From positions 45,014-109,013 of the IMG/VR virus record IMGVR_UViG_3300005758_000132: a stretch of DNA of 64,000 nt. One strand, written 5' to 3'. Source of the stretch: a virus. A model generated the notes under the pieces. It searched no databases. It was given only the letters and a program-made list of their open reading frames with translations, and was not told the DNA's origin. Shown here one piece after another: positions 2,224-39,565 of this stretch. The position numbers and the translations under genes were made by a program. Numbering within the stretch: the stretch's first letter is position 1; each line of letters starts with the position of its first letter.

Positions 2224-3723
2224 TTAGGCGGCCTTGGTGGCGCAGTTATCGATGATGGCCCACTTCTGCGGCTGCTTAAAGAAGAGCGCGCCCATCATGT
2301 AAATCATGAACGGGATGCTCGCAGAGGTCTGGCCGAGCGGACGGCGGATGGCCTCCATGAGCTGCGAGAAGTAGAGCACCTCAGACGAGAACTCGCCGAT
2401 GTAAATCGGCTTGCGGAACGGACGGCGATGGTTGAGGTCGGTCCACGAGGTGTTCGAGACACCGGCGGTGCCGCGAGCAAACTGACCGATGTAGTCGAAC
2501 TCGGTGCCGTCCTTCTCAGTACGGTAGACGCGCCAGTAACGGAGCATACCGCTCGTGTTCTTGGTGCCGGAGATGGCTGAGTCATTGAACACGAAGGTCG
2601 GCGCGTCGCCAGCCGCGGTGATGACAACGCCGTTGACGCTGATAGCGCCAGCGGTACCGCGATCACCGACCGCCACGAAGCGGTAGTCATACTCGCCGAC
2701 ATCGCCAGCGCGGAAGCGGCTGCCAGTAACAGTCGAGTTGACGGTGGGGGTGCCGGACACTGCGCCCACGTTGGGAGCGCCGCCGCCAACGGAGGTCGTC
2801 GGGAAGTTCGACGGCATCGAGATGAGCGGCATGGTGTACACCGGCGCGTCGCCGTACTCGGTGGTGAGCGCAAGCTCCTGCGGGCCGCCGATGTAGGACT
2901 TGACAGCTGCGCCGCCACGATCCTTGGGATAACGGCCAGCAGCGGCGTCGAGCGTCGTGAGGACGCGCTTGACGCGCGAGTCAGTGAACGCCTCAAGGTC
3001 GAGGGCGAAGCGTCCGTCAGACTGAAGCTCGCCGACAACGTCCTCGATATCCTCAGAGGTAGGAGCCTCGCCTTCAAGGTCGACAACGAGACCGCCGCCA
3101 CCCATGATGGACGAGCGGAAGCCGTTGAACTGGAGCGCCGAAACGCTCGCGTCACCCTCGATAAGCCAGCGCTCGATACGACCGAGGAGCTGCTTGACGC
3201 CGAGCTTGGTGCGGGTTTCAAGGAGCGAAGCGCCGCCGTCGAGACCGCCGGAGAGCACGGCCGCGGTGTCGGGGACTTCGATATTCTCCGACATGAACTT
3301 GAGCTGCACAACGATGCGCTCGAACTCAGCCTCGGAGAAACCATTGATGCCACCTTCCGCGAAGAAGGGGTCAATCGCGTCGCTGCCCTTGGCCTTCACA
3401 AGGGTAGCCTCGTGAATAAGCGACTTGGCAACCGAGACCTTCTCAAGACGGCGCCAGAGCCAGAGGTGACGCTCGCGGAAGCCAACGTCATTCAGCGTGC
3501 CCTGAATGGACTGAGTCTGAAGGGGTCCCATCGAGGCAGTGCCACCGGCGCCGCCAACGTACGAGGGGTCAGGCGGGTAAGCCGCAGTCTCCGCCTTGTG
3601 GAGCGCGTCACGCTCGTACTCGGAGATCATATTGGCAACGCGGCTAAGCATTCCGTCGTTAACACCGGCTCCGGGATTAAATCCGCCAGCCGTCATCGAG
3701 ATATTGATACCCATGTTAATCAC
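2224..3723 (-). CDS. Major capsid protein (SPO1/Herelleviridae-like)
   Basis: 499 aa, strong codon bias, follows protease and scaffold, own terminator; IEGD..QFNG motif, K43-A44 putative maturation site. Confidence 0.85.
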   Translation of the reverse strand: MINMGINISMTAGGFNPGAGVNDGMLSRVANMISEYERDALHKAETAAYPPDPSYVGGAGGTASMGPLQTQSIQGTLNDVGFRERHLWLWRRLEKVSVAKSLIHEATLVKAKGSDAIDPFFAEGGINGFSEAEFERIVVQLKFMSENIEVPDTAAVLSGGLDGGASLLETRTKLGVKQLLGRIERWLIEGDASVSALQFNGFRSSIMGGGGLVVDLEGEAPTSEDIEDVVGELQSDGRFALDLEAFTDSRVKRVLTTLDAAAGRYPKDRGGAAVKSYIGGPQELALTTEYGDAPVYTMPLISMPSNFPTTSVGGGAPNVGAVSGTPTVNSTVTGSRFRAGDVGEYDYRFVAVGDRGTAGAISVNGVVITAAGDAPTFVFNDSAISGTKNTSGMLRYWRVYRTEKDGTEFDYIGQFARGTAGVSNTSWTDLNHRRPFRKPIYIGEFSSEVLYFSQLMEAIRRPLGQTSASIPFMIYMMGALFFKQPQKWAIIDNCATKAA

Positions 3724-3755
3724 TCCTTGGAAATAACCTCACCAGCTGGCAGAGG

Positions 3756-4466
3756 TCAGACAGTCACGTTGATGTCAAAGCGCTTGAGAATTTCTTCGAC
3801 CGGAAGCGCAGAGTTTTCCAGCGTCGAAACAGCTTCGCCGATACGGACGATGACGTCCTCGCTGCCGCCGCCCTTCATCAGGCGGCTCTGCTCAGCGACG
3901 AGCGCCTTCTGAAGCGCGCTACGATTAACGGTCGGGGCCTGCGCAGCCGCGGCGGACTTGACGAGACTCTGCTCAGCCAGATCGTTCGGATGCGGCTTAG
4001 CAGCCGAAACAGAGCCGCGCGGAGCGCCGGTCGTAACGAGCTTGGCGTCAAGCGACTTCTTGATCTCATCGATCGAGTTGCTCAGCGAAGCAACATAATC
4101 AACGAGCTGCTCGACGAGCTTACCTTGCGCGAGCGAGCCCTTAACGAGCGCCGGCATGGTCTCATTGGTAAAGGAAACAAGCGACTCGACATTGAGCGCG
4201 GTGCCGCGAAGCATATCGCTCGTGTCTTCCGCCAGCGCGGGGCCACCCTTATGGATAGCCAGGCTGGTGTTGACGTCAATAACCTCGACGTCAGCAGCCA
4301 GGCGCAGGTCGCTTACGGCGTTGACAAGGTCATCGATGGAGAGGCTGACAAGCCCTTCCTCAGCCACATTACCAGCGGCGACTTCAGACTTGACGAGGCG
4401 ATCGACGGTCGCGGCGTCGAGCCCACTTGCCTTAAGCTGCGCACGCAGCGTCTTCTCGGTCATCAT
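3756..4466 (-). CDS. Putative head scaffold/core protein
   Basis: Helical protein between protease and capsid genes; seven [IL]-x-K-[AGS] motifs. Confidence 0.55.
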   Translation of the reverse strand: MMTEKTLRAQLKASGLDAATVDRLVKSEVAAGNVAEEGLVSLSIDDLVNAVSDLRLAADVEVIDVNTSLAIHKGGPALAEDTSDMLRGTALNVESLVSFTNETMPALVKGSLAQGKLVEQLVDYVASLSNSIDEIKKSLDAKLVTTGAPRGSVSAAKPHPNDLAEQSLVKSAAAAQAPTVNRSALQKALVAEQSRLMKGGGSEDVIVRIGEAVSTLENSALPVEEILKRFDINVTV

Positions 4467-4490
4467 AGTTAGTTCTCCTAGCTAGTTGGC

Positions 4491-5294
4491 TCAGCCCGCC
4501 ACAACGCGGGTCATAATCTGAGAGAGGCACTGCTTCCAGGCAGCGCTACCCTTCAGAGCAGCAGCGACCGCCAGGTCAAGCTCGTTAAGGTTAAGCCTAA
4601 CAGCGAGTGCCGTGAGGCGCTGGAGCGGATCAACTTCCACTCCGTTGGCGGTTGCATAATGGGCGGCGTCCGGAAGGAGGGCCGATAGCCCGTCATCCAG
4701 CACCTCAGATTCATTCATGGCTTTACGAAGCATGGCTCGTCCTTCTGGGGTTGCGCGTAAAGACGCGAGGATCGGATCGAACCAAGCGTCGCGGTTTCTA
4801 GGTGCGCCTGTGATAACGACATTGGCGCAGTACCAGCGCTTTACGTCGCGGCGGTCATTCTTGTCACGCTCTTGTGCAGCGCCCTCGACAGAATATCCAA
4901 GCCTGACGCGGTTAGACGCGCGGTTAATCCTCAGGATCTTTTCCCAGAGCTGCTTGGCAACCGGCTCGTCGTTAATCCAAAGACGGGTGGTGAGGTAATA
5001 GCAGGGAACACCGTCACGGGTCTCGCCCCGCTCAAGGTCCACCGGCTCGCCCACCGGATTAAAGACGCCCGCCGGATGCTCCATAGTGACGGCGCCAGAG
5101 TCGGCAGCAGTCATTTCACCTTTGGCCAGCGAACCCAAAAACGGCGAAAAATCCGCGCCGTCAACGCGTAAAATCTCGCCCTGCATGTCACGTCGCTCTG
5201 ACGTACAAATGCCGCGGATGAGCCCCTGCTCGCCGCCCTTGGTGATAGGCTCGATTCCTGGTGTCCAAGTCGAGATTCTTTCGCGCGCGTTCAT
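4491..5294 (-). CDS. Prohead (maturation) protease, HK97/U35-like
   Basis: IRGICTSERRDMQGE, TMEH, GYSVEG (catalytic Ser), ITGAPRN motifs; start reassigned to ATG at 5294. Confidence 0.85.
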   Translation of the reverse strand: MNARERISTWTPGIEPITKGGEQGLIRGICTSERRDMQGEILRVDGADFSPFLGSLAKGEMTAADSGAVTMEHPAGVFNPVGEPVDLERGETRDGVPCYYLTTRLWINDEPVAKQLWEKILRINRASNRVRLGYSVEGAAQERDKNDRRDVKRWYCANVVITGAPRNRDAWFDPILASLRATPEGRAMLRKAMNESEVLDDGLSALLPDAAHYATANGVEVDPLQRLTALAVRLNLNELDLAVAAALKGSAAWKQCLSQIMTRVVAG

Positions 5295-5340
5295 GCTGTC
5301 ACCGTTGTACTTATTTAGCGACAAAGTCAAGTTGCTCTAA

Positions 5341-6123
5341 CTAGACTAGGTTCCAGTTACTGTCGAACGACTTGCCGGGTGGAATTGGTACGACCACGCA
5401 TCTGCAATTAGGGTGCAGCGGAGGTCTAGGCACTGCACCGGACATCAAGTCCTTGACGTCAAATACCTTGGGCGAGCCGCTTTTGTCCAAAAACGCGCCC
5501 TTACATTTTGGGCACGCGTCTTTCTGCGGAACCACCGCGGCCTTCTTGGTTTTGCCTGCTTGTATGGTGGACACGATAACGCCGTCATTGAACGCGGCTT
5601 GAAGCTCAGTCGTGACGATGCGCTTTACGTCTTTTTCCGTACCGTCAAACACAGGCGTCAGGCGCTCGATAGCCTTTTCAATCAGCTTATCGCGCGGCAG
5701 ACCTAGCGATATCGTGTCCGCCAGCACGGAACGGAGCTTGGCGCGCACTGCGTCTTCGATTCCAGTAATCCGCAGCCCCGCACGCTCGCGCACATATTTC
5801 CATGCCTCTAGTTCTGGGGGCTTGAGCCAGTTCGGAAAGGCTTTGGTGGCTGTTGCACCTTTCGACTCCCCGCCAGGTCTGTACGCTTTTTCAATGGGGG
5901 CGCGGTCCTGAATCCAGCGCTTTATGAACTGCACCCACTTTGAGAGCTTCCACGTCCGCGACTTGTTTATGTCAGTATCCGCGAACGCTAGACCCATTAT
6001 GAGGCTCAGCTCGATCGGCGATACGTCCCAGTCTTCCAGACCGATAATTACGCCGTCGAGATATGCGCGCCGGAACTCGTCGCTGACACGCGCGGCCTCT
6101 TTATCTGGGTCGAATAGCAACAC
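5341..6123 (-). CDS. Head morphogenesis protein (MuF/SPP1 gp7 family)
   Basis: RIVTTE, CPKC and PPLHPNCRC signature motifs. Confidence 0.88.
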   Translation of the reverse strand: MLLFDPDKEAARVSDEFRRAYLDGVIIGLEDWDVSPIELSLIMGLAFADTDINKSRTWKLSKWVQFIKRWIQDRAPIEKAYRPGGESKGATATKAFPNWLKPPELEAWKYVRERAGLRITGIEDAVRAKLRSVLADTISLGLPRDKLIEKAIERLTPVFDGTEKDVKRIVTTELQAAFNDGVIVSTIQAGKTKKAAVVPQKDACPKCKGAFLDKSGSPKVFDVKDLMSGAVPRPPLHPNCRCVVVPIPPGKSFDSNWNLV

Positions 6124-6125
6124 GC

Positions 6126-6647
6126 TCAGTACGCTCGCATCTTCTTGCCCTTCATGACGTGATCGTGCATCGAGTCCATCGCGGCGCCGATCGTCCCATG
6201 AGCCTCAGGCATGAGCTCCTTACCACCTACAGAAGGCGTGTGCACCCATCCGCCACCCTTAGCGGCCTTCGAGAGCATCTCTGTCCGCAGGTTGCTAAAA
6301 TTACGCATCGCCACGCTGCCGTTGGCAGGCTCAACCACACCGGAGAAACGGCTCCAGCGCTCGTTCGGCACCTGGTTGTTATCAGACGTGAGCGTGTAGA
6401 AATCCTTGTATCGGCTGAGCTCGTTGATGCCGAAATCGGGGTACCACGTAAGGTAGGACTCGCTATTGAGGTCACCCTTGTAGCAACCGCCCTTCATGCT
6501 GCCCTCAAGCGGCTCGAAGCCTTCAGGAGGCATCTTGCTCTTATCAGCGGGCTCAAGGTCCTGAGTCTGCAACGCTTGCAGCGTATTGGGCTCGAATCCG
6601 TTAACCCCGCCCCAACCCATACTAATCGCGTTCATGTTTGTGTTCAT
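6126..6647 (-). CDS. Hypothetical head-module protein carrying the shared PPxG...WYP module
   Basis: Likely start ATG 6647 (MNTNMNAISM) after AAGGGG; longer track ORF overlaps the upstream gene. Confidence 0.6.
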   Translation of the reverse strand: MNTNMNAISMGWGGVNGFEPNTLQALQTQDLEPADKSKMPPEGFEPLEGSMKGGCYKGDLNSESYLTWYPDFGINELSRYKDFYTLTSDNNQVPNERWSRFSGVVEPANGSVAMRNFSNLRTEMLSKAAKGGGWVHTPSVGGKELMPEAHGTIGAAMDSMHDHVMKGKKMRAY

Positions 6648-6879
6648 CGGACATCCCCTTTTCAAGGTCTCGCCGCAGTGCGTCGAGCCGTTTCTTAAAC
6701 CCTTCCTCCAGCGAAGCGCGGATCTCTTCAATCGCGTGCACTTCGCCGTCGCGCGCGGACTTACCCTTGAACAGAGCGTCAGCGGCGTCAACGAAGCCTT
6801 TGTAAATTCGCGCGGCCAGCTCTGTATGAGTCATCGCGTCGAGCTCGCCCGGCGCGTCTTCTTGGATGGTTATCTTCAT
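6622..6879 (-). CDS. Hypothetical protein (helical, LFKG/LEKG motifs)
   Basis: ATGA-coupled to upstream gene. Confidence 0.55.
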   Translation of the reverse strand: MKITIQEDAPGELDAMTHTELAARIYKGFVDAADALFKGKSARDGEVHAIEEIRASLEEGFKKRLDALRRDLEKGMSDEHKHERD

Positions 6880-7097
6880 CCGCCGATCACTGCTGCGTAG
6901 CAGTACTCAGGCGCGCCACGAAGGCGCCACGCGTTGTACTGCTTGCCCTCGAACTCGATGACAGTAGGCTCACCCATACTACGCGCGTCACGCACGTAGA
7001 GGCGGTCTTCGCCTACCACAAACGGAAGGACGTGCCACTCTCCCGCCTCGTCCTTCACTAACGCGAACACGCGCTCGTCATCTTCAGCAATAGCCAT
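6876..7097 (-). CDS. Hypothetical protein
   Basis: GGAGG SD, 73 aa, fills gap in operon. Confidence 0.6.
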   Translation of the reverse strand: MAIAEDDERVFALVKDEAGEWHVLPFVVGEDRLYVRDARSMGEPTVIEFEGKQYNAWRLRGAPEYCYAAVIGG

Positions 7098-7115
7098 AAC
7101 ACGCCTCCCCAGTCG

Positions 7116-11693
<4,578 letters not shown>

Positions 11694-11708
11694 AGTACAC
11701 CTCGCGTG

Positions 11709-13643
11709 TTAGACGCGCACCTGAACAACGATTGGCTCACGCTGTGAGCCGCGTGAAACGATAGACCAAGGCTTGCCCGGACGCCACGTTGGTGGAGGCT
11801 TTACTAGGCCTCGCCTGACGGCTTCTGCCACGGGACCTGCAAGGCTCTTGGTGATCTGGTTTATCGAGCCGCCGTGCTTTGGGTCTCGATACAGCGACGC
11901 CATAAGCGAGGCGTCATCGAAATCCTCGAACGGAGCCTCAGGCTCTTCTTCCTCACCGGGCGGCATCTCTCCACCCATGCCCATATCCATACCGCCACCC
12001 TCGCCACCTTGCTGCTGGTTCATGGCGTCCATGGACTGCGCTTGCGAGATGTACGGGTTGGCGATGACGTCGCCGGCGGACCCTGGAATAGGCTTGAGGT
12101 CGTAGCGAGCGCGGATCTCGTTCACTGACATGAACGACTCTAGCATCTTCTTGTCGATATCGAGCTTCTCGCCCTCAGTCAGCGAGTCAAAGCCGGTGAA
12201 CTCGAACACGAAGGTCTCACCGTCCTTGAAGCGCGGCAGGAACTTGGAGTTGATCCAGCTCTCAATCGACCGCAGGCGCGGGCGCAAGCCACGCGCGCGG
12301 CTCATCTCATATCGCTCCGCCGGTCCGCTGCTGTTGAGCGCGGATTGGCCTTCGTTGCCGAACTGCATGTTGAGCGCAGCAACCGGGTCGACGCCATACG
12401 CAGCGCACACCAGCTTGACGTTGTAGAAAAGCCAGTTGGTGAACTCCATCTCCTTGTTGGAGTTGGAGAGGTTGACAGACTTGATGTCTTCCTTCTGCGA
12501 CGGGTCGAGCTGGATGATCGGCATCCGGCGCTTAGCCGCTGCCTGCGAAAAGTTAGCGTCGAAGGTGCGGCGCATCGCAGAGAAAGCGGTGCGGTCCATC
12601 GTCGACATGATCGCGAGCAAGGACGAGGAGTGAATGCCGGAGGTGAAGTTGACCGCGTTGTAGTTTTCCGCGCGACCGAAATTGACTAGCACGTTCCAGA
12701 GCATGTGAAGCTCAGGGAATCCGTAGTCGACAAAGCGCATCCCGACACGCGGGTTGCGGATGCCGTAAATCATCTCCGGCTCGTCCCACTCTGCCACCAC
12801 GCGATTCAGAACCCACTGGACGTAGCCAGACTCGCCCCACTGCCCGCGGTCATAGTACTGCTGCGAAGGCTCGCGACGACGCACAGACTGCGCATCGTAC
12901 ACGAACATTCCCATGGGCTCAGTGTTGCGGAAGCCAGAGGCCTCTAGGATCTCGATAGGCGCAGCGTCGTAAACAAGCGACTCGCGCATGAAACGCCGAA
13001 CCGTGCCTTCAAAACCTCCTGACTGATACTTACCGCCGCCACGCTCAATTACGCGCTCGATTTCGGTCATCCGCAGCTTCTCAGCCTTAGTCGGATGCCG
13101 GCTTGTGTCAGCGAGCCTCAGTCGAAAGCCAAACGTATGCGCGACCGTCTGGCGCTTGGCAAACTCGCACACCTCTGCGACAGCGTGATTGATGACCAGT
13201 GCAGGCACTGACATCGACGCCAGCTTCTCTAACATCCACCACGGCATCCCGTCAGTGCCTGGATGCGTAGGATTGAGATTCGCGTCTGAAGTGATGCGAC
13301 CTATCGCGTCAACGGGATCGAACGCGTAACCAGCGGGTCCCGGCTCCTCTTTCTTAGCCGCCTTGAAGAGCGCATCAACCGGGTCCGGTACGTCAAACGC
13401 CGGCGATGACGCCGTTGGCATAACAACCGCGCCCATATCGGGCGCACCACCGCCGAGGAACGCTCCTGGTCCTGACTTGACGATAACCTCGTCAGGCGCG
13501 GTCTGCTCCGCGGCCGGTGTCTGCGCCGTGTCCTGAGGAGGTCTAGCAGCGTCAACAAACGCCTCAGAGGCGCGGCGGGCTAACGACCCTGCCGCTCCCC
13601 CTAGAGACGCTGCTAAGCTGTTCAAACGGTCCATAATCGACAT
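11709..13643 (-). CDS. Portal protein
   Basis: 644 aa; IRNPR..YGFPEL, EMEFTNW..VCAAYGVDP, GLRPRL, SVNEIRARYDLKP portal motifs. Confidence 0.88.
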   Translation of the reverse strand: MSIMDRLNSLAASLGGAAGSLARRASEAFVDAARPPQDTAQTPAAEQTAPDEVIVKSGPGAFLGGGAPDMGAVVMPTASSPAFDVPDPVDALFKAAKKEEPGPAGYAFDPVDAIGRITSDANLNPTHPGTDGMPWWMLEKLASMSVPALVINHAVAEVCEFAKRQTVAHTFGFRLRLADTSRHPTKAEKLRMTEIERVIERGGGKYQSGGFEGTVRRFMRESLVYDAAPIEILEASGFRNTEPMGMFVYDAQSVRRREPSQQYYDRGQWGESGYVQWVLNRVVAEWDEPEMIYGIRNPRVGMRFVDYGFPELHMLWNVLVNFGRAENYNAVNFTSGIHSSSLLAIMSTMDRTAFSAMRRTFDANFSQAAAKRRMPIIQLDPSQKEDIKSVNLSNSNKEMEFTNWLFYNVKLVCAAYGVDPVAALNMQFGNEGQSALNSSGPAERYEMSRARGLRPRLRSIESWINSKFLPRFKDGETFVFEFTGFDSLTEGEKLDIDKKMLESFMSVNEIRARYDLKPIPGSAGDVIANPYISQAQSMDAMNQQQGGEGGGMDMGMGGEMPPGEEEEPEAPFEDFDDASLMASLYRDPKHGGSINQITKSLAGPVAEAVRRGLVKPPPTWRPGKPWSIVSRGSQREPIVVQVRV

Positions 13644-13670
13644 TTGGTATCCCCCAGTCAGCCCGCAGCG

Positions 13671-16600
13671 TTATCGTCGACGCGTTACCTTGGAACGCAC
13701 GATGCTACCGGACTTCCAGAACATGGAAACGCCCCGCTCGTCTACCTTTACCCAGGTATTTTCTTCGCCTAGAACCGGCGCGAAACCTACAGGCGGCTTA
13801 GCCATACGAGTGTCCGCCATCAACTTGAGCAAGTCGGGGTACTTGCCGCCGATGAGCATATGGCGCGCGAGCTTGGCCTCAGAGGTGCCGTTGTACTCTT
13901 CGATGAAGCGCTTGAAGGACGCGCGCAAAGCCTCAGTGTCAATCGCGCGCTTAGGCTCGCCGTGCGTCACGTAAGGCAGCACAACGCCACCGCCAGGGGC
14001 CTCTAGCGCGAGCATCATAGCGTTGCTAGCATCCGCCTGTGACCGCCAAGTGCTGCCCTTGCTGACGGGCTCAGATGCCAAATCAGAGTAGTCTCCGTCC
14101 ACAGCGCGTTCCCCAAGCGCTGCGCGAATCTCTCTTTCGTACATAAAGTCGTAGTACCAAAGCTCCGCCTGATTCTCGTAAGAAATCTGCTCGTACTGCA
14201 TACCGACAGCCTTCTTCAGTTTTAGAAGCGCTGTCTCCGTCTCGTCTAGCTCGCGTAGAAACACAAAATGTTTATTTATTCCGCCTAGTTTCGACGTTAC
14301 CTTGGAGTCGTTCTTTAGCTCAGGATGGTTCTTAGGGTCACCTCGATATACCTCTTCAACCGCATACGATCCGCTCAGGATCGTCTCATACTCGCCTGTG
14401 TGAACGCTCAACTTGTCTACCCGTAAGCCTCTAGTAGCGTTCCTGACAATATACAGCGTTGAGGCGTCACCAGTGCCGCCAAACTGTGTTAAAACTTCAG
14501 TTGATGAACTAGAGCCATCGTTCATCGTAACAACTAGCCCAGCGTGCAACGCTTTGACTGAAAACTCGTTTGTCCTCATGTTGCGGTAAAGTTTTTTAGG
14601 TACAGGCACCGCTGCGGGTCGTCTGTTACCTAAAATCTGAAGAACGGCGTTATTGCGATGAACTGAGTCATCCGGAAAGTTAGGTTTGATGTCGATGATG
14701 TATGGCTTGAAATTATTAGCTGCGGCAGTAGTCCCATCCTTCGTTATCTGTCTTTGCGCGTTATAGACATCGCGCACAGCTTGCTCTGATATGTTAGGCG
14801 CAAGTCCTTGCGATTTATGATCTTTGAGCAAGCCGACGTAGTTATAAGCGTCAAAATAGTTATTTCCATTGGCGTGCAGCCAAATGTGCGCACGAGCCAA
14901 CTCTTCCTTGTATTCCATGGTGAACGTCTTCGGATCGCCAAAGTCAGTCGCCAAGTACTTAGCGCCGTCCTTGCCGGTAGCGAATGTAGCGCCTCCGAGT
15001 CCGTTGTCTCCGAGTGCGCTAGACAGCGCTGCGGCGTCCGCCTTTAGCTCGTCCAATAGCGCATTGTTTTTGGCGATGGACACGTTCCACTTTCCAGCAG
15101 TGGGCGACTTCGCCTGTACAGGCGAACTAGGTGCTACCGCTACCGGCTTTCCATAGGACGTACCGTATTGCTGTGTATATGTTTTCTTCAGCTCATCGAT
15201 AGTCTTCTGCATCGCTTCACTGTTGATAATTTGTGACGAGGCAGCGTGAAACTCAGCTATTTTAATCGCGTCCTTTTTCAACTCTTCCGCACACTTGGTG
15301 TAAGCGCTAATCAGACGCTTGTTTGTTAGGCTACCCTTATGCTGAGACCAATCTGAGCTGTCAGGCACATAGAACTCGTCGGAAGGTGGGAGCGCGTCCC
15401 AAGCCTTTCCTGCTTCACCTTTAGGCCGCTGAGATTTCAACTTTTTCACTGCGTCCTCTAGCTTCGCAGAGGCATTGTTTCGATCAGCGGCCGTGGCCAA
15501 GAAGTCTATCTTGCTTGAGTATGGCAACTTTCTAGGACGAAATGCTTTCACATAGCTATCATTGGCAACATATTTGGAAGCGCCGGGGTAGCTTGCCAAG
15601 AGCTGCTGAACCGCGTGCATAGCTGCTGATTTAGACTCTGTCTTTTGCTTCTTGGTAGCACCCCATGAAGTCGTTACTTCTACTGTCTCGTAATTGAGCA
15701 CGTCTAAGTTCGTTGGCGTTACTTCAGAGTCTTGAATTAGACTAAAGTCCTTATTGTCAAGCGCGTCAATGACGGCATTCCAGTCGCTCTTATTGGAATC
15801 CGTCATGTTGATATTCCATGGATACTTGAGACTACCTGACAAATTTTTGTCCTTGGCTATGTTTACTATAACGTCTCCTAAAGAGTACAGTTTTGGAGAG
15901 CCGGGCGCAGTAACCGATAAGTTGGTAACGTCTTTGAACGCGCTACCAACTGCGTGATTAGTTTGAGTGATACCAGTAGGCCCGGAATACGCCGCGCCTG
16001 AACTTGAGCTTGAAGCTATAGAACCTGGTACTTCAAAAAGCTCATGCACGTTAATGGTGGTCTCAGCTTTCGCAGTGAAGCAGTCAGTGATTAACGCCTT
16101 TCCTATAGGCGACTCGTAAAAATTGCTCTCGTATTGGTAGCCGGTAGCCCAGGTGTCGTCAGTAGCCGGCGATTGCTTGAAAGCTGCTTTAACATACGCA
16201 GCACGCTTTTTCAGGAACTCGTCGTAGGAGCTAGCGTGCTTCTCGTATTTTTTGACGAGCATATCAACCATTGTGCTTAGAGCTTCCGCGGCTTTAATCG
16301 TTGCGGCGGCTGCAATAACGGCTTGCTGCTCCGCGGTCAGCTCTATCGGTTTAGCTGCGATCTCTTCTTCGATCTTAGCCGCTTCGACGATGACCTTGGC
16401 GGGCGTTGCGTCTGGAATGATGTCCTTGACAGACTCAGCAGCCTTCGAAGAAACGTCCTTCGCCTTATCGCCCAGAGCCTTCAAGTTCTTGATCTTGGCG
16501 ACTGCGGACTGGAGGTCTGTCTTAGCAAACACCGCTGTGGGCTCGCTTACAGCCTCGTGTCCCTGGTCGAAGATAACATTCTCAGCGTGCCATGCGCCTG

Positions 16601-17240
16601 ACGCGTCCTCGTCAAGCTCGTGTGCTTCGCCGGAGTAGAGCGCTTCTTGATTCGGTTCAATCTTCCAACGCGACATGAGCGCTTGCAGGATCTCCTGCGG
16701 CACGTTGCTCGCGCTGTCGATGCTACCGTCAGCCTTGACGCGCATAAGCGAGTAGGTACCCGACACGTCACCGGGCATGACCTTGAACTTGGCCTGATGG
16801 TCAAGAGACGCGAACACCTTGTTGAACACGGAGTCTTCAAGCGCTGGGTCCGTTGGGTCCCAGTTATCTGCCTTGACCTTGACGATTTCGTACTGGTTGC
16901 CGTCAGCGTCGCCAAGCACAGCGATATTCGAGGTTTTACCGTGTATCGATTGCTCTAGGTTAACAATAATCTCGTGCCAAAGCGCCGCTTTATTACCGAA
17001 AAACTCTTTTAGCGCGTCATAGCTGGCACCTTTCACGTTATAACCAAGCTCGGTCAACAGCTTTCGCGCGTGTAACTCTAAGTACGACGTGCCGTGCTTC
17101 TCTAAAGACTCAGTTACCTTTTTCTGAAAGTCAGGATCAGGATACCAGTACAGGGTTTTCTTGCCCGTCTTCTTAAACCAGCCGTGCGAACGACTGCCTG
17201 GGATGGGCATGTATCCTGGAGGGGGCTTCTGAGGTTGCAT
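13671..17240 (-). CDS. Large virion-associated protein with R-S-E type ADP-ribosyltransferase domain
   Basis: 1189 aa between terminase region and portal; LYRNM...GSSSS...GEYETIL at about 14250-14600. Confidence 0.65.
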   Translation of the reverse strand: MQPQKPPPGYMPIPGSRSHGWFKKTGKKTLYWYPDPDFQKKVTESLEKHGTSYLELHARKLLTELGYNVKGASYDALKEFFGNKAALWHEIIVNLEQSIHGKTSNIAVLGDADGNQYEIVKVKADNWDPTDPALEDSVFNKVFASLDHQAKFKVMPGDVSGTYSLMRVKADGSIDSASNVPQEILQALMSRWKIEPNQEALYSGEAHELDEDASGAWHAENVIFDQGHEAVSEPTAVFAKTDLQSAVAKIKNLKALGDKAKDVSSKAAESVKDIIPDATPAKVIVEAAKIEEEIAAKPIELTAEQQAVIAAAATIKAAEALSTMVDMLVKKYEKHASSYDEFLKKRAAYVKAAFKQSPATDDTWATGYQYESNFYESPIGKALITDCFTAKAETTINVHELFEVPGSIASSSSSGAAYSGPTGITQTNHAVGSAFKDVTNLSVTAPGSPKLYSLGDVIVNIAKDKNLSGSLKYPWNINMTDSNKSDWNAVIDALDNKDFSLIQDSEVTPTNLDVLNYETVEVTTSWGATKKQKTESKSAAMHAVQQLLASYPGASKYVANDSYVKAFRPRKLPYSSKIDFLATAADRNNASAKLEDAVKKLKSQRPKGEAGKAWDALPPSDEFYVPDSSDWSQHKGSLTNKRLISAYTKCAEELKKDAIKIAEFHAASSQIINSEAMQKTIDELKKTYTQQYGTSYGKPVAVAPSSPVQAKSPTAGKWNVSIAKNNALLDELKADAAALSSALGDNGLGGATFATGKDGAKYLATDFGDPKTFTMEYKEELARAHIWLHANGNNYFDAYNYVGLLKDHKSQGLAPNISEQAVRDVYNAQRQITKDGTTAAANNFKPYIIDIKPNFPDDSVHRNNAVLQILGNRRPAAVPVPKKLYRNMRTNEFSVKALHAGLVVTMNDGSSSSTEVLTQFGGTGDASTLYIVRNATRGLRVDKLSVHTGEYETILSGSYAVEEVYRGDPKNHPELKNDSKVTSKLGGINKHFVFLRELDETETALLKLKKAVGMQYEQISYENQAELWYYDFMYEREIRAALGERAVDGDYSDLASEPVSKGSTWRSQADASNAMMLALEAPGGGVVLPYVTHGEPKRAIDTEALRASFKRFIEEYNGTSEAKLARHMLIGGKYPDLLKLMADTRMAKPPVGFAPVLGEENTWVKVDERGVSMFWKSGSIVRSKVTRRR

Positions 17241-18038: not shown

Positions 18039-20018
18039 TTACTGAGCGAGCCAATCGTTCAGCTCGTCCCACACCTGAACCTCGCGCACCTGCTCACGCT
18101 CTACCGCACGCTGCGCGATTCCGTCGTTGCGTACCTTAGCCGCGCGCTGCTCGTATTGCTCCGCGTCTTCATCGACTTTTCGCACGGGCTTCTGATCTAT
18201 CGTCTCCGTAATCAGCGCGGTCATAGCGGTATTCATCGGCACGATATCTGCGAGACCGAAATGACGCTCGCCTAGTCGACGTCTACAACCGTCCCACGCC
18301 ATGTAGACGCTCATTGCTCGGTCGCCAGTGTGTACGCTTGGATCAGGCGAGTAATGCAGCAGGTCCTGAATCCAGGCCTCTACCTCGTGGTGCACCTCGC
18401 GATAGTCGCCGCAAGGTATCGACCAGAGCTTAGCCTTCATCTCTACGCCGATGCCCTCAATACCCCACTTCGGGTTGTGCTTGTCGCCCGTAGTCGTGAA
18501 CGGAACAACCTTACGCCGCAGGTCTGGCGGGAAGGTCAGACCAAAGCCGGAGAGATCGCCCTTTAGCGCGCGCGAAATAACTACCTGCGCGCCGTTGCTC
18601 TCGACGAAAATAAATCGCGGATTCCACTGCTCGTTCGCTAGCACGATATTGCTGAGCAAATCGTCGAGCATCCAGCGCCCCGACTTTATCTGTATCAGCT
18701 CTACCCTACCGACACTGTCCACCGCGATCACGCTGATAGCAGAGCGGTCACCACGCTTCTCGATATCTGCGAACGCCAAGTCTACCCCCACGTAGAACGC
18801 GCGCTCGTCGTTTTCTAGGCGCTCTGAACGCATCAGGGCTACCCGGTGCTCATCCACCATGCCAGCGAGCCTGGGGACCTTACAGCCATCAAACCACTCG
18901 CGCTTGAAGCGCGATGTAGCGTCAGACGTGGTGAGGCACTCGAACGCGCGCGCAGCTTCCGCGGGTGGAAGACTTGCGTAAGCCCTATCGAGCTTCTCCT
19001 GCGTCCATACCTCTGGCCATGTAGTCTTTCCGTTGTGGTCACGCAGCGGAAAGCGCGCGCTCACCCATCCGTCAGCAGACTTCTCAGCGCTGAGCGCTTT
19101 CTTGTATACCTCACTAGCCTCCGGCTTCTCGCTACGTAGCTCTCCCGTGTTTTTAGCCGCCTCTTCGAGCGACGCTGCGTCAGCCAGCGCTTCGTTCATT
19201 GAACCGGACGCGATGACGTGCATAGCGTCCTCCGGGTGCCACGCGTTCCCCATGAGGATCGCGATGTTGACCTTTGAGCCGAACAAACGGGTGAGCAGCG
19301 TCGTCAAAATCCACTGGAGCGTTTTCTCGCGCTGGTCTTGCGTACGCGTGTTAGCAAACGTCAGCACGTCATCAACCAGCACTACGTCGAGACGAGCGCC
19401 GAGGATATTACCGAACAGGCCGCATGACTGGAAGCTCGGATCGCGCGCGGTAGATTGTCTGTCGACTGTGATCGCGTGCGTATTCCAGACCGTGCCTTGA
19501 CGACGGCTCTTTATCAGGTGCGGAAACACCTGATGCAGCTCGTCATACCCAGGGGTATGGGGATCGTCGACGTAGGCGCCTACAGTGCGGACGGACTTCT
19601 TCGCTAGTCCGTCCGTGGCTTGGACGATGGCGATATGCAGGTCAGGGTTTCGGCCTAACAACCAGAGCGGATACCCGACTGAGAACTGCAACGACTTGCC
19701 AGTACCCGGCGAGCCCCACATGACGACGCGGTTATTACCGCGCACGAGGCTGTGCATAGCCTCGTGGAAAGGCGCCTGAGCGATAGCCTTACCGCCGTCA
19801 CCTTCTGCCTTCAGCACGTACTCGCAGAAAGTGGACGACTCGTACCTAGCCATGACCATACGCGCAGCCTTTGCAGCGCGAGCTTGCCGAACCAGCGCGT
19901 CAGCGAATAGCGGGTTGTTCTTAGCCTTCGACGCCATGTTTACCAGGCCGCCGAGGCTTAGATCATCGCTGGACTTTAGTACGCGTATGAGGTCTTCATC
20001 GAACATTAGCCACCCCAT
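18039..20018 (-). CDS. Terminase large subunit
   Basis: Walker A GSPGTGKS, Walker B VLVDD, GNAWHPED coupling motif, nuclease VGVDLA...GD. Confidence 0.9.
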   Translation of the reverse strand: MGWLMFDEDLIRVLKSSDDLSLGGLVNMASKAKNNPLFADALVRQARAAKAARMVMARYESSTFCEYVLKAEGDGGKAIAQAPFHEAMHSLVRGNNRVVMWGSPGTGKSLQFSVGYPLWLLGRNPDLHIAIVQATDGLAKKSVRTVGAYVDDPHTPGYDELHQVFPHLIKSRRQGTVWNTHAITVDRQSTARDPSFQSCGLFGNILGARLDVVLVDDVLTFANTRTQDQREKTLQWILTTLLTRLFGSKVNIAILMGNAWHPEDAMHVIASGSMNEALADAASLEEAAKNTGELRSEKPEASEVYKKALSAEKSADGWVSARFPLRDHNGKTTWPEVWTQEKLDRAYASLPPAEAARAFECLTTSDATSRFKREWFDGCKVPRLAGMVDEHRVALMRSERLENDERAFYVGVDLAFADIEKRGDRSAISVIAVDSVGRVELIQIKSGRWMLDDLLSNIVLANEQWNPRFIFVESNGAQVVISRALKGDLSGFGLTFPPDLRRKVVPFTTTGDKHNPKWGIEGIGVEMKAKLWSIPCGDYREVHHEVEAWIQDLLHYSPDPSVHTGDRAMSVYMAWDGCRRRLGERHFGLADIVPMNTAMTALITETIDQKPVRKVDEDAEQYEQRAAKVRNDGIAQRAVEREQVREVQVWDELNDWLAQ

Positions 20019-35302: not shown

Positions 35303-36432
35303 AACCAGCTATCCTTACGCGTTCTTGCTGCTCGCAATTTAGGAACCCGCTTACCGCAAGTCGCTAGCTCTTTCTGCGCGAGAGATATCACGTCATCGAT
35401 GTCTTCCAATGTCATGGGCGACGATTTCGTCAATTCAACATATTCGCGGAATGACTCGCTCTCTGAAAAAGCGTTGGCGATAGTCTCGATGTAGCTCTTG
35501 GCACGGCGTAACATTCTTGCTCTATCGCCGACCACGTCTCCCGGTCGCTCGTCTGCGTACTCCTCATTGCGCGCCTTCTCATACGCTGTGACCACGAATC
35601 TATGCACCATCACTACTGAGGCGTTACGAGCGCGCGTTGACTCGCCTATCCTCGCTAGAAGCGGCCAGTCGTTCGCCTTATCGCCACGCTTCGTGTCTAT
35701 AGCCTTGCACAGTGACGCCAGACCGTCGAGCGATATGCGCAGAGCTAGCGTAGCATCCCTGTACCCCATCTCACGAGCACACGTCTCTGTCTGCTCGCGC
35801 TTGAAATGCGCCTTCATGCTAGTGATAATTTGCTTACACGTCGGGCAGGTCTTCACGAGCTTGAGAAAGTCCTCTGCGACCGCTGTGATATCGCTTATTG
35901 AATCGCTCGCCATGAATAGCGCTGCGTAGTGTTCACTGTCAGCCTTTTCAATCAGCGCTTCTTCGCCGTGATTTCGCATGAACGATATTCGAGGCGAAAA
36001 CGGTGGGCTTGACTTGATTCCACAGTAGCTAAGCGCGATGGAGCCATCTTTGCGGCTGGATACTGTTATGTCCGCGATCGCCCCCAACGGCCTGTCTTCT
36101 ATCGTTAGCAACGAGTAAAGCGGCACGCTTATGCTTAGCGTGAACGCGCCTAGATCGCGCTCGATAGCGATCTTTTCTGCTTGATGCGCTGTAAGCCTCT
36201 CTCCGCGTGTCGAAAATGTACGCGTCTCGAATAGCGCGCGTTCTAGGTTAACGTTGTGCAAGTTATAGCGCTCAAGACGCTGCTGCACACTACTCATGAC
36301 CTTGACCAGGTCCTCGAACGAGGATGCGACAAACGCGTGTCGAATGCCTTGCAGCACGGGAACCGGGTCCGCCCAGTCAGACACGTGCATTTTGTCAGTA
36401 CCATCTTCCAGCGTATAAAGTATGCGTCTCAT
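35299..36432 (-). CDS. Hypothetical protein
   Basis: 377 aa ORF, one CxxC. Confidence 0.6.
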   Translation of the reverse strand: MRRILYTLEDGTDKMHVSDWADPVPVLQGIRHAFVASSFEDLVKVMSSVQQRLERYNLHNVNLERALFETRTFSTRGERLTAHQAEKIAIERDLGAFTLSISVPLYSLLTIEDRPLGAIADITVSSRKDGSIALSYCGIKSSPPFSPRISFMRNHGEEALIEKADSEHYAALFMASDSISDITAVAEDFLKLVKTCPTCKQIITSMKAHFKREQTETCAREMGYRDATLALRISLDGLASLCKAIDTKRGDKANDWPLLARIGESTRARNASVVMVHRFVVTAYEKARNEEYADERPGDVVGDRARMLRRAKSYIETIANAFSESESFREYVELTKSSPMTLEDIDDVISLAQKELATCGKRVPKLRAARTRKDSWL

Positions 36433-36442
36433 CTATAGATCC

Positions 36443-37783
36443 TCAAGGTTGAATTATGACTGAAGAGCCCCACGCGACTGGTGGGTTAGTTCCGCCTAGC
36501 ATCGCCCAAATCACTCTGGTATCCGCAGGCGGCGTTGCTGGCGCCGTTCCGTACCCGTCTGTAATGTAGACCAGAACATTAGCGCGCTTGTTTCTAGGCA
36601 GCTTAGCGTGCGCATCAAACGCAGGTCGAAAATCAGTACCACCGCCGCCCCGCAATTTGATTTTATCCACGTCCTGCACGCTTACCTCGCGCAGCTCGTG
36701 CATTTCTGCGTCACACTGTCCCCACATCACTTCACTGCGCGTGGTTTCCAGCACGCCGCGGACTTCAGCTAGCGCGTTTTCTAGCAGGCTAACCATAGAG
36801 CCGGAGGTATCCATGACCACCATTACGCGGACCTTCGGCTCTACCTGTCTAGGCTGCAAAAACTGCCCGTACGTGCGCCGTGCGAATCTCGACCAGTCGT
36901 TGCGCGTATTGCCTTTGACGCTCTCAGTAGCGCGCCGTACCGCGGTGCGTAGCTGCGCTCTCCAGTCTACCTTCGACTTTTTACGCCGTTGAGCGTCTAG
37001 GCGGATGCCGCTGGGGATCGTTCCTTGCTGCGCGGCGCGTGCTACTGAGTCAGTCATGCTATCTACGAGCGCCTGACTATCCGCGGAGGACAACCCAGCG
37101 TACTTGCCCATATCGTCGCCGCTGGTATCGGCAGCGTCACCGCTCTGCGCGCTACCGCCCGTGCGCGTCTTAGCCGCGGCCTGCTCAGACTTGTCACTTG
37201 CGTCGTCAGCCACTCCAGCTGAGGCGTCGATTTCGTCCTGAAGCTCTTGCTCGATCTGCGTAGGAGCGCCAGCACCTGATCCGCAACCCTGCGCGCTCAT
37301 AGGCTGAGCTTGTTTCGCCTGCTTGCCCTGCTTCGCGAGCAAGGCCGCATAATAGTCCTCTGCTGTTAGATGCACAGGACAACCGATCGTCTCTGGGAAG
37401 ACCGGCTCGCCTGGAAACTTACATCCCGCGTCACGGAGGTCATCGTTGATCTCAGCATCACACGCGATATTCCAATTTCGCGCAGACTCTTGCCCTACGA
37501 TACCTAGCGCCTTGGCTCGCGCGCCGTGCTGCTGCCAGAGATGAAGCAGCTCGTGCAGAAGCACGGTTGCCAGCTCTTCGTGCTTCCACTTCCCGACAAC
37601 GTCTTCATTGAGAATCACTACCCACTTGTCACTGACGCACGCCGCGAAAGACGGATCGGGAACTGTGACGAGCAACGGGGTAAGCGCTGCCAGCTCCACG
37701 CTCCAGTAGGGCATCCGCCTGGACGCCGCCACGAACGCGCGCTCAACCAGCGCCTCGAAATCTTTATTTGTGCTTATCTTCAT
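36443..37783 (-). CDS. Zincin metallopeptidase-VWA protein (DUF2201 type)
   Basis: HELLH, WNIACDAEIN, MIDAS DTSGS, GGGGTDFRP, ITDG. Confidence 0.88.
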   Translation of the reverse strand: MKISTNKDFEALVERAFVAASRRMPYWSVELAALTPLLVTVPDPSFAACVSDKWVVILNEDVVGKWKHEELATVLLHELLHLWQQHGARAKALGIVGQESARNWNIACDAEINDDLRDAGCKFPGEPVFPETIGCPVHLTAEDYYAALLAKQGKQAKQAQPMSAQGCGSGAGAPTQIEQELQDEIDASAGVADDASDKSEQAAAKTRTGGSAQSGDAADTSGDDMGKYAGLSSADSQALVDSMTDSVARAAQQGTIPSGIRLDAQRRKKSKVDWRAQLRTAVRRATESVKGNTRNDWSRFARRTYGQFLQPRQVEPKVRVMVVMDTSGSMVSLLENALAEVRGVLETTRSEVMWGQCDAEMHELREVSVQDVDKIKLRGGGGTDFRPAFDAHAKLPRNKRANVLVYITDGYGTAPATPPADTRVIWAMLGGTNPPVAWGSSVIIQP

Positions 37784-37792
37784 GTCGATCCT

Positions 37793-37821
37793 TGTATACG
37801 CGCAAACGTTTTTCGCGTCAA
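37793..37821 (-). promoter_or_regulatory. Conserved promoter TTGACG-N17-TATACA (near-leaderless)
   Basis: Spacer CGAAAAACGTTTGCGCG; -10 ends 9 nt before the ATG. Confidence 0.8.
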
Positions 37822-37829
37822 CTCATATC

Positions 37830-39029: not shown

Positions 39030-39058
39030 GTCTCAATCTCCTTGTTCTAGGTGACGCG

Positions 39059-39105
39059 AGCCTAGACTAAAGCTGCGCGTCTGTAAATAGAAAAAACGTT
39101 TTTCT
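39059..39105 (-). promoter_or_regulatory. Promoter TTTACA-N17-TAGGCT with upstream near-palindrome AGAAAAACGTTTTTTCT
   Basis: Spacing and shared core motif. Confidence 0.55.
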
Positions 39106-39113
39106 CGAAGGTG

Positions 39114-39416: not shown

Positions 39417-39451
39417 CTTAGCGCTCCTTGGTTTCCGTTCCTTACAAGCCG

Positions 39452-39500: not shown

Positions 39501-39516
39501 AAACAATGTAAAACGC

Positions 39517-39542: not shown

Positions 39543-39565
39543 GTTCATAGGTGAAGACTACAGGC

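What the first reader, a model, noticed from the sequence alone, without database searches (positions are those of the whole stretch)
6438..17228. A shared 30-aa module on unrelated head-module proteins: candidate capsid-loading/ejection tag
Seen: the same peptide occurs in three otherwise unrelated genes around the portal and MuF genes. KPPAGFTPIPGSKFGGYHKRVGNSWQTWYP (11520-11609) and MPPKGYTPVPNSKIGGYRHWTGLDWVYWYP (11166-11255) are in the 1525-aa protein. KPPPGYMPIPGSRSHGWFKKTGKKTLYWYP (17139-17228) starts the 1189-aa ART protein. MPPEGFEPLEGSMKGGCYKGDLNSESYLTWYP (6438-6533) is in the small protein. A degenerate copy, KPPVGFAPVLGEENTW...FW (13716-13799), ends the ART protein. Three copies are exactly 30 aa. 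I saw none in the replication or early genes. Known: T4 internal proteins use a capsid-targeting sequence, and MuF-linked polyvalent proteins are virion-delivered. Inference: a portable addressing domain that loads enzymatic effectors into the head for injection.
Basis: partly seen in the sequence, partly recalled or inferred. Interest (0 to 1): 0.88.

Follow-up and report, generated by a model that had tools for sequence, protein, structure and literature searches.

The report
Shared header tag on phage cargo
A conserved 30-residue mini-domain, absent from Pfam, PHROGs, solved structures and the papers I searched, heads ten modules on seven proteins among this uncultured phage's head genes and over 200 protein families elsewhere; it probably marks proteins carried inside the capsid, which is untested.

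Summary
The module K-P-P-x-G-[FY]-x-P-[IV]-P-G-S-K-x-G-G-[YF]-[RH]-K-x-x-G-x-x-[WY]-x-[YT]-W-Y-P lies on the minus strand at the stated coordinates. The whole 109-kb virus record holds 10 copies in 7 proteins, all between the terminase and tail-sheath genes.

A profile finds it in 234 protein clusters, up to 6 copies per protein. These carry classic phage "polyvalent protein" domains (TopoIB, InPase, DdrB-ParB, SNF2-methylase, Zeta, ART). It has no Pfam, PHROG or PDB match and no hit in cultured phages or plasmids. It is almost absent from 185,579 cellular genomes. In 19 of 22 viral contigs it lies beside portal, TerL, MuF or neck genes.

New here: 59% of copies follow a Φ-x-K-[AGS] motif within 15 residues. 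That motif also marks the capsid-protein propeptide boundary and is dense in the scaffold-position proteins, so it is probably the prohead-protease site. The module would therefore be retained 2-5 residues from a free N-terminus, unlike the T4 targeting sequence, which is removed.

The head-cargo reading is supported by context. The loading function is inference. This scan found similar cut-site-plus-tag grammars before on other DNA, with different tags.

The parts
17139..17228 (-). Module copy at residues 5-34 of the 1189-aa protein. It has no leader and starts 4 residues after Met.
   Evidence: Translation. HMM E 2e-16. External HMM E 2e-12.
13671..17240 (-). 1189-aa cargo protein between the ParB-like gene and the portal gene. 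It has an ART-like domain at about aa 875-1010 (window about 14211-14618).
   Evidence: No Pfam or PDB sequence hit. Invariant R...SSS...ExE in 7 homologs. Foldseek top hits are all ARTs, E 5e-3 to 0.1. VIA-align Z 6-7.9 over 90-113 residues.
13716..13799 (-). Degenerate module-like stretch at the C-terminus of the 1189-aa protein. It keeps K-P-P-x-G-F-x-P-V and F-W only.
   Evidence: Translation. Not detected by the HMM built from other genomes. Weak copies lie at the same place in homologs P0009 and P0038.
11709..13643 (-). Portal protein. Homologous portals sit next to module genes in other phages.
   Evidence: PF04860 E 1e-13 and phrog_12 E 5e-29. Homologs adjacent to module ORFs in at least 14 loci.
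11520..11609 (-). Module copy 1 of the 1525-aa protein (aa 29-58). It is preceded by a leader ending A-I-A-K-G.
11166..11255 (-). Module copy 2 of the 1525-aa protein (aa 147-176). It is preceded by V-I-K-S and I-L-K-S.
7116..11693 (-). 1525-aa polyvalent cargo protein with a PolyA_pol/CCA-type nucleotidyltransferase head domain at aa 1311-1414 (window 7452-7763).
   Evidence: PF01743 E 1.4e-10 and phrog_2244 E 1.7e-9.
6438..6533 (-). 32-aa variant of the module in the small protein.
   Evidence: HMM E 4e-16. External HMM E 1.5e-7.
6126..6647 (-). Small cargo protein, 173 aa from the ATG at 6647. The 221-aa reading from the upstream TTG is probably too long.
   Evidence: The 173-aa form is the one on record, P0050.
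5341..6123 (-). MuF-like minor head protein.
   Evidence: phrog_115 E 2e-13. PF04233 E 1.5e-4, below Pfam's cut-off.
4491..5330 (-). Prohead maturation protease, the candidate enzyme for the Φ-x-K-[AGS] sites.
   Evidence: phrog_1028 E 5e-13. Homologs next to module genes in L030, L032 and L075.
3756..4466 (-). Scaffold-position protein (236 aa) with seven Φ-x-K-[AGS] motifs.
   Evidence: The proteins at the same position in three other phages have 7-9 motifs each.
2224..3723 (-). Major capsid protein. L-H-K-A at aa 41-44 (window 3592-3603) aligns with Φ-x-K-[AG] in three homologs, just before the conserved core.
   Evidence: phrog_752 E 9e-32. Alignment.
18039..20018 (-). Large terminase, the upstream edge of the block that holds all the modules.
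   Evidence: phrog_38 E 8e-53.

Best explanation
The module is the retained N-terminal 'header' of proteins carried inside the phage head. The carriers are split or fused forms of phage-type polyvalent effector proteins.

Each cassette reads: optional amphipathic leader, Φ-x-K|[AGS] site, 1-4 residues, 30-aa module, payload enzyme.

Proposed sequence of events:
1. The cargo enters the prohead.
2. The prohead protease cuts at Φ-x-K|[AGS], as it probably does in the capsid protein, scaffold and portal.
3. Every payload is left with the module 2-5 residues from a free N-terminus. Copies that start right after Met have the same geometry.

The module is a small, strongly basic, three-stranded beta mini-domain. 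I infer that it docks each payload to an internal head component, for incorporation or retention and for exit with the DNA. The partner could be the portal/MuF vertex, the shell interior or the packaged DNA.

Shown: the sequence family, its distribution, its gene context and the motif statistics.
Inferred: cleavage, packaging, docking and ejection.

My odds: carriers are head cargo, about 0.75. Cleavage occurs just upstream of the module, about 0.65. The module itself is the docking or address element, about 0.4-0.45.
For: Copies in this genome:
- 10 copies in 7 proteins, all between TerL and the tail sheath, and none elsewhere among 771 ORFs.

Spread and partners:
- The profile finds 234 clusters at E<=1e-3 among 1.84 billion representatives, with 2-6 copies in many giant proteins.
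- Partner domains are those of phage-type polyvalent proteins. InPase, DdrB-ParB and RelA/SpoT are said by PMC5512222 to be phage-only.

Gene context:
- 19 of 22 IMG/VR contigs with confirmed modules have portal, TerL, MuF, protease or neck genes in the fetched stretch. Usually these are directly adjacent.
- In two complete genomes the only modules lie within about 5 kb of the portal gene: both upstream in G004, one on each side in G001.
- Neighbours in G003 match PHROGs named 'released from the phage upon host infection' and 'DarB-like antirestriction'.
- The strict DNA pattern gives 20 true hits among 24 stretches in viral contigs. It gives 1-2 true hits among 83 stretches in 596 Gb of cellular genomes, and the clear one lies beside a prohead protease homolog.

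Cut site:
- Φ-x-K-[AGS] lies within 15 aa upstream in 95 of 161 copies, against 8% background (p 8e-61), ending 1-4 aa before the module.
- The same motif aligns at the capsid-protein propeptide boundary in 4 phages. It occurs 7-9 times in each scaffold-position protein and near both portal ends.
- N-terminal copies start 2-7 residues from Met. Post-site copies mostly start 2-6 residues from the predicted new N-terminus.

Structure and mobility:
- AF2 gives a pLDDT of about 80 for the module, with three strands.
- The leader plus module moves as a DNA cassette, with 92-94% identity between two genes.
Against: - No experiment exists. No cultured phage carries the module, so no virion proteome applies.
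- The module also follows MuF domains in one ORF (L028, L017). It recurs up to 6 times in one polyprotein. One address per protein would be enough for loading, so this points to a role after cleavage.
- Giant module-free proteins sit in the same head blocks, so the module is not required for all cargo.
- The net charge of +4.6 fits DNA binding equally well.
- The fold searches gave nothing.
- 66 of 176 copies lack the strict motif within 15 aa.
Context is therefore known for 22 contigs only.
Confidence: 0.5

Rival explanations
1. The module is a nucleic-acid-binding mini-domain. It holds each enzyme on DNA, either the packaged genome or the entering and host DNA after injection. Its head-gene context would then only reflect that polyvalent proteins are encoded there. 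The removable leader would be the true capsid address.
For: - Mean net charge is +4.6 over 30 residues, with conserved K13, K19, [RH]18 and [RK]20 and an aromatic face.
- Many payloads act on DNA: TopoIB, C5 and N6 methylases, SNF2 helicases, DdrB-ParB.
- One module per payload fits a role after cleavage.
- In P1, DarA-Hdf touch the DNA inside the head (PMC12810830).
Against: - Zeta toxin, ART, InPase, RelA/SpoT and SAM lyase payloads also carry it.
- It matches no known DNA-binding family or fold.
- 15 copies have no leader at all, yet lie in the same context.
Confidence: 0.2
2. The module is a recognition element (exosite) for the prohead protease. It makes the adjacent Φ-x-K|[AGS] site a good substrate, so that polyproteins are cut into units.
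For: The spacing between the site and the module is tight, 1-4 residues. The module recurs between the domains of giant proteins.
Against: - The predicted sites in the capsid protein, scaffold and portal have no module.
- 15 copies sit at the extreme N-terminus, with nothing upstream to cut.
- A 30-residue domain this conserved is more than a cleavage signal needs.
Confidence: 0.1
3. The module works only in the infected cell. It would be a WW-like peptide-binding domain that takes every injected enzyme to one host target, such as a proline-rich or DNA-bound host protein.
For: The pattern is WW-like: P-x-G-aromatic, then 22 residues, then W-Y-P, with three predicted strands. In other phages a clamp-binding-like Q-L-S-L-F-G often lies just upstream.
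Against: - Pfam WW was not reported even at E<=10.
- There is no fold match.
- The carrier contigs span G+C 0.54-0.68 in those measured. A shared host target would therefore have to be very conserved.
Confidence: 0.1
4. The repeat is only a recombination scar or a recent intragenomic duplication, with no function of its own.
For: Two cassettes are 92-94% identical in DNA.
Against: The other copies are 62-84% identical in DNA yet keep the protein motif. The family spans 234 clusters at 50% identity, with invariant G5, G16 and W28.
Confidence: 0.02

Closest known systems
Phage-type polyvalent proteins and MuF-linked effectors (Iyer, Burroughs, Anand, de Souza, Aravind 2017, PMC5512222)
   Same: The payload domains are the same: InPase, DdrB-ParB, SNF2-methylase, ART-PolyVal, LPD1, Zeta, RelA/SpoT. 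The gene context next to portal, terminase and MuF is the same. So is the predicted delivery with the DNA and the predicted processing into units.
   Different: - That paper proposes zincin-like metallopeptidase domains for processing.
- It lists 40 LPD domains. I found no short shared header or prohead-protease site grammar in the sections and term searches I read.
- The module matches none of Pfam's models, which include LPD families.
- Here the kit is partly split into single-payload genes.
T4 capsid targeting sequence of internal proteins IPI-III and Alt (reviewed in PMC3012670 and PMC9026906; described via PMC9024508)
   Same: It is a short portable element on unrelated head-packaged proteins, coupled to cleavage by the prohead protease.
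   Different: The T4 sequence is an N-terminal leader that the protease removes. Here the predicted cut lies upstream and the module is kept. The amphipathic leader of some cassettes is the T4-like part. There is no sequence similarity.
P1 DarB N-terminal 30-residue capsid targeting signal (PMC9024508) and the DarA-Hdf inner-shell complex (PMC12810830)
   Same: It is about 30 N-terminal residues on a giant antirestriction polyvalent protein, and it suffices to package a reporter. The cargo is held at the inner shell and touches DNA.
   Different: The P1 authors found no consensus among the Dar N-termini. Here one consensus is shared by 7 proteins and 234 clusters. tblastn with two queries against 50,697 phage records found nothing.
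Encapsulin cargo-loading peptides (from my own knowledge, not tested here)
   Same: They are short portable tags on diverse enzymes that bind the interior of an HK97-fold shell.
   Different: Those are mostly C-terminal, unstructured, and not coupled to proteolysis. This is an analogy only.
WW domain (a resemblance recalled from memory; a lead, not a test)
   Same: It is about 30-35 residues with three strands, P-x-G-aromatic near the start, and W followed by P near the end, about 22 residues later.
   Different: The first aromatic is F or Y, not W. The ending is W-Y-P rather than W-x-x-P. The first loop is long, conserved and basic. There is no Pfam or fold match.

Membership tests
Phage-type polyvalent proteins (Iyer et al. 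2017) | Several domains of disparate biochemical activity in one polypeptide | tested here: met
   Many database carriers combine such domains, for example SNF2 + N6_Mtase + PT-HINT in P0053. Of this genome's carriers, each has only one confirmed enzymatic domain: NTase in the 1525-aa protein, TopoIB in the 778-aa protein. Several own carriers are single-payload genes.
Phage-type polyvalent proteins (Iyer et al. 2017) | Encoded beside the portal-terminase packaging genes or MuF | tested here: met
   True here and in 19 of 22 other contigs.
Phage-type polyvalent proteins (Iyer et al. 2017) | The module is one of the described LPD or other domains | tested here: not met
   No Pfam family at E<=10 for four of the five window copies. 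The only rows are chance-level, Kelch_1 at 0.052 and DUF7495 at 0.092. LPDs that are not in Pfam could not be checked.
T4-type capsid targeting sequence | N-terminal leader removed by prohead-protease cleavage on its C-terminal side | tested here: not met
   The predicted site lies 1-4 residues upstream of the module, not downstream. Cleavage itself is a prediction.
T4-type capsid targeting sequence | Sufficient to direct a foreign protein into the head | not testable with these tools
   This needs a packaging assay.
P1 DarB-type N-terminal signal | Sequence relatedness to the DarB N-terminus | tested here: not met
   tblastn of one module copy and of the two-module protein P0012 against 50,697 phage records gave no match. 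I did not check that P1 is among those records.
WW domain | Match to the family profile or fold | tested here: inconclusive
   No WW row in Pfam at E<=10. Foldseek and VIA-align found nothing for the 73-residue model. Very small domains are hard for both tools.
R-S-E ADP-ribosyltransferases (payload of the 1189-aa protein) | R, S-x-S and E-x-E catalytic motifs on the ART fold | tested here: inconclusive
   The motifs are invariant in 7 homologs. Foldseek's top rows are all ARTs, but at E 5e-3 to 0.1. VIA Z is 6-7.9. There is no Pfam hit.
Prohead-protease substrates sharing one site code | The same short motif at the capsid-protein propeptide boundary, dense in the scaffold, and in front of cargo | tested here: met
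   This is comparative evidence only, with no cleavage data.

The most novel reading that the evidence does not exclude
The cassette (leader, protease site, header, payload) is a general grammar of a phage protein-injection system. The header, exposed at a free N-terminus, would be an export signal read at the portal/MuF vertex. It would order and thread each enzyme out through the tail with the DNA, much as a secretion signal does. Different phage lineages would use different headers for the same logic, as earlier unchecked notes of this scan on other genomes suggest.
Probability: 0.2. Interest if true: 0.85.

Novelty: new variant of a known kind. Interest (0 to 1): 0.6.

Why it matters
Phage proteins injected with the DNA act first against host defences, yet they are hard to recognise in uncultured phages. 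A header conserved in sequence and tied to a protease-site code would let injected effectors be read directly from metagenomes. Here they include a topoisomerase IB, a nucleotidyltransferase and an ART-like enzyme. The cassette also gives a defined unit to test for loading foreign proteins into capsids. It sharpens an open question as well: how giant polyvalent proteins are processed and kept in the head. The evidence here points to the prohead protease rather than to built-in metallopeptidases.

Tried and rejected
Searches that found nothing:
- Pfam and PHROGs on the isolated modules.
- PDB sequence search with the module profile.
- Foldseek and VIA-align on the AF2 model.
- ESM Atlas, which gave only generic beta fragments.
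- tblastn of a module and of the two-module protein P0012 against cultured phages and plasmids.

Tool problems:
It found only 6 loci with a closer one.
I rewrote it with gap notation.
- The search for homologous proteins needed at least 40 aa and was rerun.

Ideas rejected:
- A conserved extension downstream of the module. There is no conservation beyond about 5 residues.
- A Pfam or sequence-level ART or HipA assignment.
- The degenerate C-terminal copy as a full member.
- 81 or 82 of the 83 pattern matches in cellular genomes, which are chance.

Full report
**1. Observation**

All genes here are on the minus strand. The five peptides translate exactly as reported at the stated coordinates. 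A six-frame scan for the motif core finds these five places and no others in the window. A strict DNA pattern for the 30-residue form finds the three exact copies, against none in 100 shuffles.

The window is bases 45014-109013 of a 109,013-bp IMG/VR virus record, which CheckV calls complete. I laid out the whole record. It holds 10 copies in 7 proteins. An HMM of the copies hits no other ORF among 771.

The five copies outside the window lie in:
- a 778-aa protein (two copies)
- a 285-aa protein
- a 301-aa protein
- a 380-aa protein

These genes are at L004 11013-17854, which is record bases 36026-42867.

An HMM built only from 153 copies in other genomes recovers nine of the ten copies. It misses the degenerate C-terminal stretch of the 1189-aa protein, which is therefore only a weak relic.

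**2. Surroundings**

Gene order in the direction of transcription:
1. TerL
2. ParB-like protein
3. 1189-aa protein, with a module at the N-terminus and the relic at the C-terminus
4. portal
5. 1525-aa protein, with two modules and a C-terminal PolyA_pol-type NTase
6. two small ORFs
7. 173/221-aa protein, with one module
8. MuF-like protein
9. prohead protease
10. scaffold-position protein
11. major capsid protein
12. two unannotated ORFs (196 and 285 aa)
13. tail-fibre-like protein
14. 580-aa protein
15. 778-aa protein, with two modules flanking a TopoIB core
16. a virion protein
17. 285-aa, 301-aa and 380-aa module proteins, interspersed with neck-type genes
18. sheath and tube

The phage is a contractile-tailed virus. 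Its portal is about 30% identical to SPO1-type portals, and there is no DNA match in GenBank phages.

The label 'ART protein' has moderate support:
- There is no Pfam or PDB sequence hit.
- R...SSS...ExE is invariant in seven homologs.
- An AF2 model (mean pLDDT 64) draws only ADP-ribosyltransferases at the top of Foldseek, at E 5e-3 to 0.1. VIA-align gives Z 6-7.9.

**3. The family**

The ten-copy profile, searched against 1.84 billion representative proteins, finds 234 proteins at E<=1e-3 and 52 at E<=1e-10. They are 100-3298 aa long, and many hold 2-6 copies.

The consensus from 142 fixed-length copies is K-P-P-x-G-[FY]-x-P-[IV]-P-[GN]-S-K-[KH]-G-G-[YF]-[RH]-K-[RK]-x-G-x-x-[WY]-x-[YT]-W-Y-P. 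G5, G16 and W28 are invariant, and the mean net charge is +4.6.

Pfam scans of 117 of the carriers give these families:
- ddrB-ParB, InPase, Topoisom_I
- SNF2 and Strawberry-notch helicase parts
- N6 and C5 methylases
- Zeta toxin, ART-PolyVal, LPD1
- RelA_SpoT, SAM lyase, PT-HINT and several DUFs

This is the repertoire of phage-type polyvalent proteins. PMC5512222 lists InPase, DdrB-ParB and RelA/SpoT as restricted to the phage type.

The module itself matches nothing:
- no Pfam or PHROG family
- no PDB sequence
- no hit in 50,697 GenBank phage records or 72,556 plasmids

The sources of the hits are metagenomes. One hit is named as from an uncultured Caudovirales phage.

**4. Where it is encoded**

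- In IMG/VR, 24 stretches matched and 20 hold HMM-confirmed modules.
- Six more loci came from a protein-pattern scan.
- In 596 Gb of genomes from 185,579 prokaryote species, 83 stretches matched. Only one is clearly real and one is marginal. The clear one is a 4.7-kb MAG contig with a prohead-protease homolog next door.

The module is thus a feature of free viral contigs. It does not appear in prophages, conjugative elements or plasmids.

Of 22 distinct viral contigs with modules, 19 have a portal, TerL, MuF, protease or neck/sheath gene in the fetched stretch, usually adjacent. The common layouts are TerL, then module gene(s), then portal, as here, or portal, then module gene, then MuF.

Individual records:
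- G004 is a complete 70.8-kb relative that is syntenic with this phage. It has just two module genes, both directly upstream of the portal.
- G001 is a complete 100-kb genome. It has one module gene on each side of the portal.
- G003 has ten modules. Five are in two ORFs shortly downstream of TerL and portal. Five are in a divergent cluster whose members match PHROGs named 'released from the phage upon host infection' and 'DarB-like antirestriction'.
- In L028 and L017 the module follows a MuF domain in the same open frame.

**5. A protease site in front of the module**

The upstream sequences often end in Φ-x-K-[AGS]. The strict motif lies within 15 residues upstream in 95 of 161 copies, against 8% of background windows (p 8e-61). 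It ends 1-4 residues before the first K of the module. Many of the remaining copies have the motif 16-30 residues upstream, followed by a linker.

The same motif appears in the head proteins of four phages:
- It aligns in one column just before the conserved capsid-protein core. Here that is L-H-K-A at residues 41-44.
- It occurs 7-9 times in each scaffold-position protein.
- It occurs once near the N-terminus and once near the C-terminus of each portal.

This is the usual signature of a prohead-protease code. It is comparative evidence, with no cleavage data.

Fourteen to fifteen copies sit at the extreme N-terminus with no leader (one search counts 15; tabulates 14). Their first K is 2-7 residues from Met. 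In the post-site copies it is mostly 2-6 residues from the predicted new N-terminus. Both classes thus give the same mature geometry: the module close to a free N-terminus.

In this genome several cassettes also have an amphipathic leader of the form Y-x-x-x-L-x-x-W-A-x-x-Φ-Φ-K. AF2 models it as a helix. Leader and module move together as DNA. The start of the 301-aa gene and an internal cassette of the 778-aa ORF are 92-94% identical. The relative L033 has the TopoIB protein without that second cassette.

**6. Structure**

I ran AF2 on the first 73 residues of the 301-aa protein with a 42-row alignment. The module has a pLDDT of about 80. The model shows a short first strand and a tight hairpin (46-50, 53-57), after a helix at 4-18.

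The pattern resembles a WW domain, but that resemblance is from memory. Neither Pfam nor the fold searches support membership.

**7. How it most likely works**

The carriers are head cargo, for three reasons: gene context, payload repertoire and the shared protease code. The module is kept on each payload after processing, which is the reverse of the T4 targeting sequence.

I commit to a docking role. The small basic domain would hold each payload on an internal head component for incorporation or retention and for exit with the DNA. My overall confidence is about 0.5.

The weak points:
- A module behind MuF, and several modules per polyprotein, fit a role after cleavage better than simple loading.
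- Module-free giant proteins share the same head blocks.
- The charge fits DNA binding equally well.

Rivals, with my odds:
- DNA binding, 0.2
- protease exosite, 0.1
- host-target binding, 0.1
- no function, 0.02

**8. Comparison and novelty**

The concept is known from three systems: T4 targeting sequences, the P1 DarB N-terminal 30-residue signal (PMC9024508) and polyvalent proteins (PMC5512222).

What is new is one conserved, widespread, folded header shared by more than 200 protein clusters, together with its fixed position just after a probable prohead-protease site. I found no description of it in the papers I searched.

Earlier notes of this scan describe similar cut-site-plus-tag cassettes with other tags in other genomes. 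They describe this tag only in this genome. Those notes are unchecked and I do not count them as evidence.

Verdict: a new variant of a known kind, with interest about 0.6.

Noticed in passing
Database proteins P0011, P0016, P0053, P0064, P0067, P0069 and others; not in the window: A clamp-binding-like motif Q-[LM]-[SG]-L-F-G lies between the predicted cut site and the module in at least 12 copies from other phages. It usually appears as Φ-Φ-K-[AS], then 0-8 residues, then Q-L-S-L-F-G. A looser form of the motif occurs 39 times in 125,000 residues, against my rough estimate of about 7 expected. This genome's structural-block proteins, carriers included, have none.
   Followed up: partly
L004:15518-17854 (-), outside the window (record bases 40531-42867): The 778-aa TopoIB ORF carries a second, in-frame leader-plus-module cassette from about residue 534. 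Its DNA is 92-94% identical to the start of the 301-aa gene. The relative L033 has the TopoIB protein without it. This is either a recent fusion or a nested gene.
   Followed up: partly
window 14211-14618 (-): An ART-like domain in the 1189-aa protein. R...SSS...ExE is invariant in 7 homologs and the fold matches are ARTs only (VIA Z 6-7.9), but there is no Pfam hit. It may be a divergent ART family.
   Followed up: yes
window 2224-5330 and 11709-13643 (-): Φ-x-K-[AGS] looks like the prohead-protease code of this phage group. It marks the capsid-protein propeptide boundary, occurs 7-9 times per scaffold-position protein, and lies near both portal ends in four phages.
   Followed up: yes
window 6622-6879 (-): An 85-aa ORF between the portal-side cargo genes and MuF has a homolog at the same position in the complete relative G004. 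Its function is unknown.
   Followed up: no
L004:17948-19690 (-), and L124:6276-13181 (-) in G005: Giant proteins without the module sit in the same head blocks. The 580-aa protein here shares a roughly 100-residue domain (phrog_7595) with module-bearing giants elsewhere and has seven Φ-x-K-[AGS] motifs.
   Followed up: partly
window 8280-9110 (-): The HipA/kinase-like region of the 1525-aa protein, noted by other first readers, has no Pfam match even at E<=5.
   Followed up: partly
L036:4489-5553 (-): A sliding-clamp-like gene (phrog_947) lies directly next to TerL and a module gene in one related contig.
   Followed up: no
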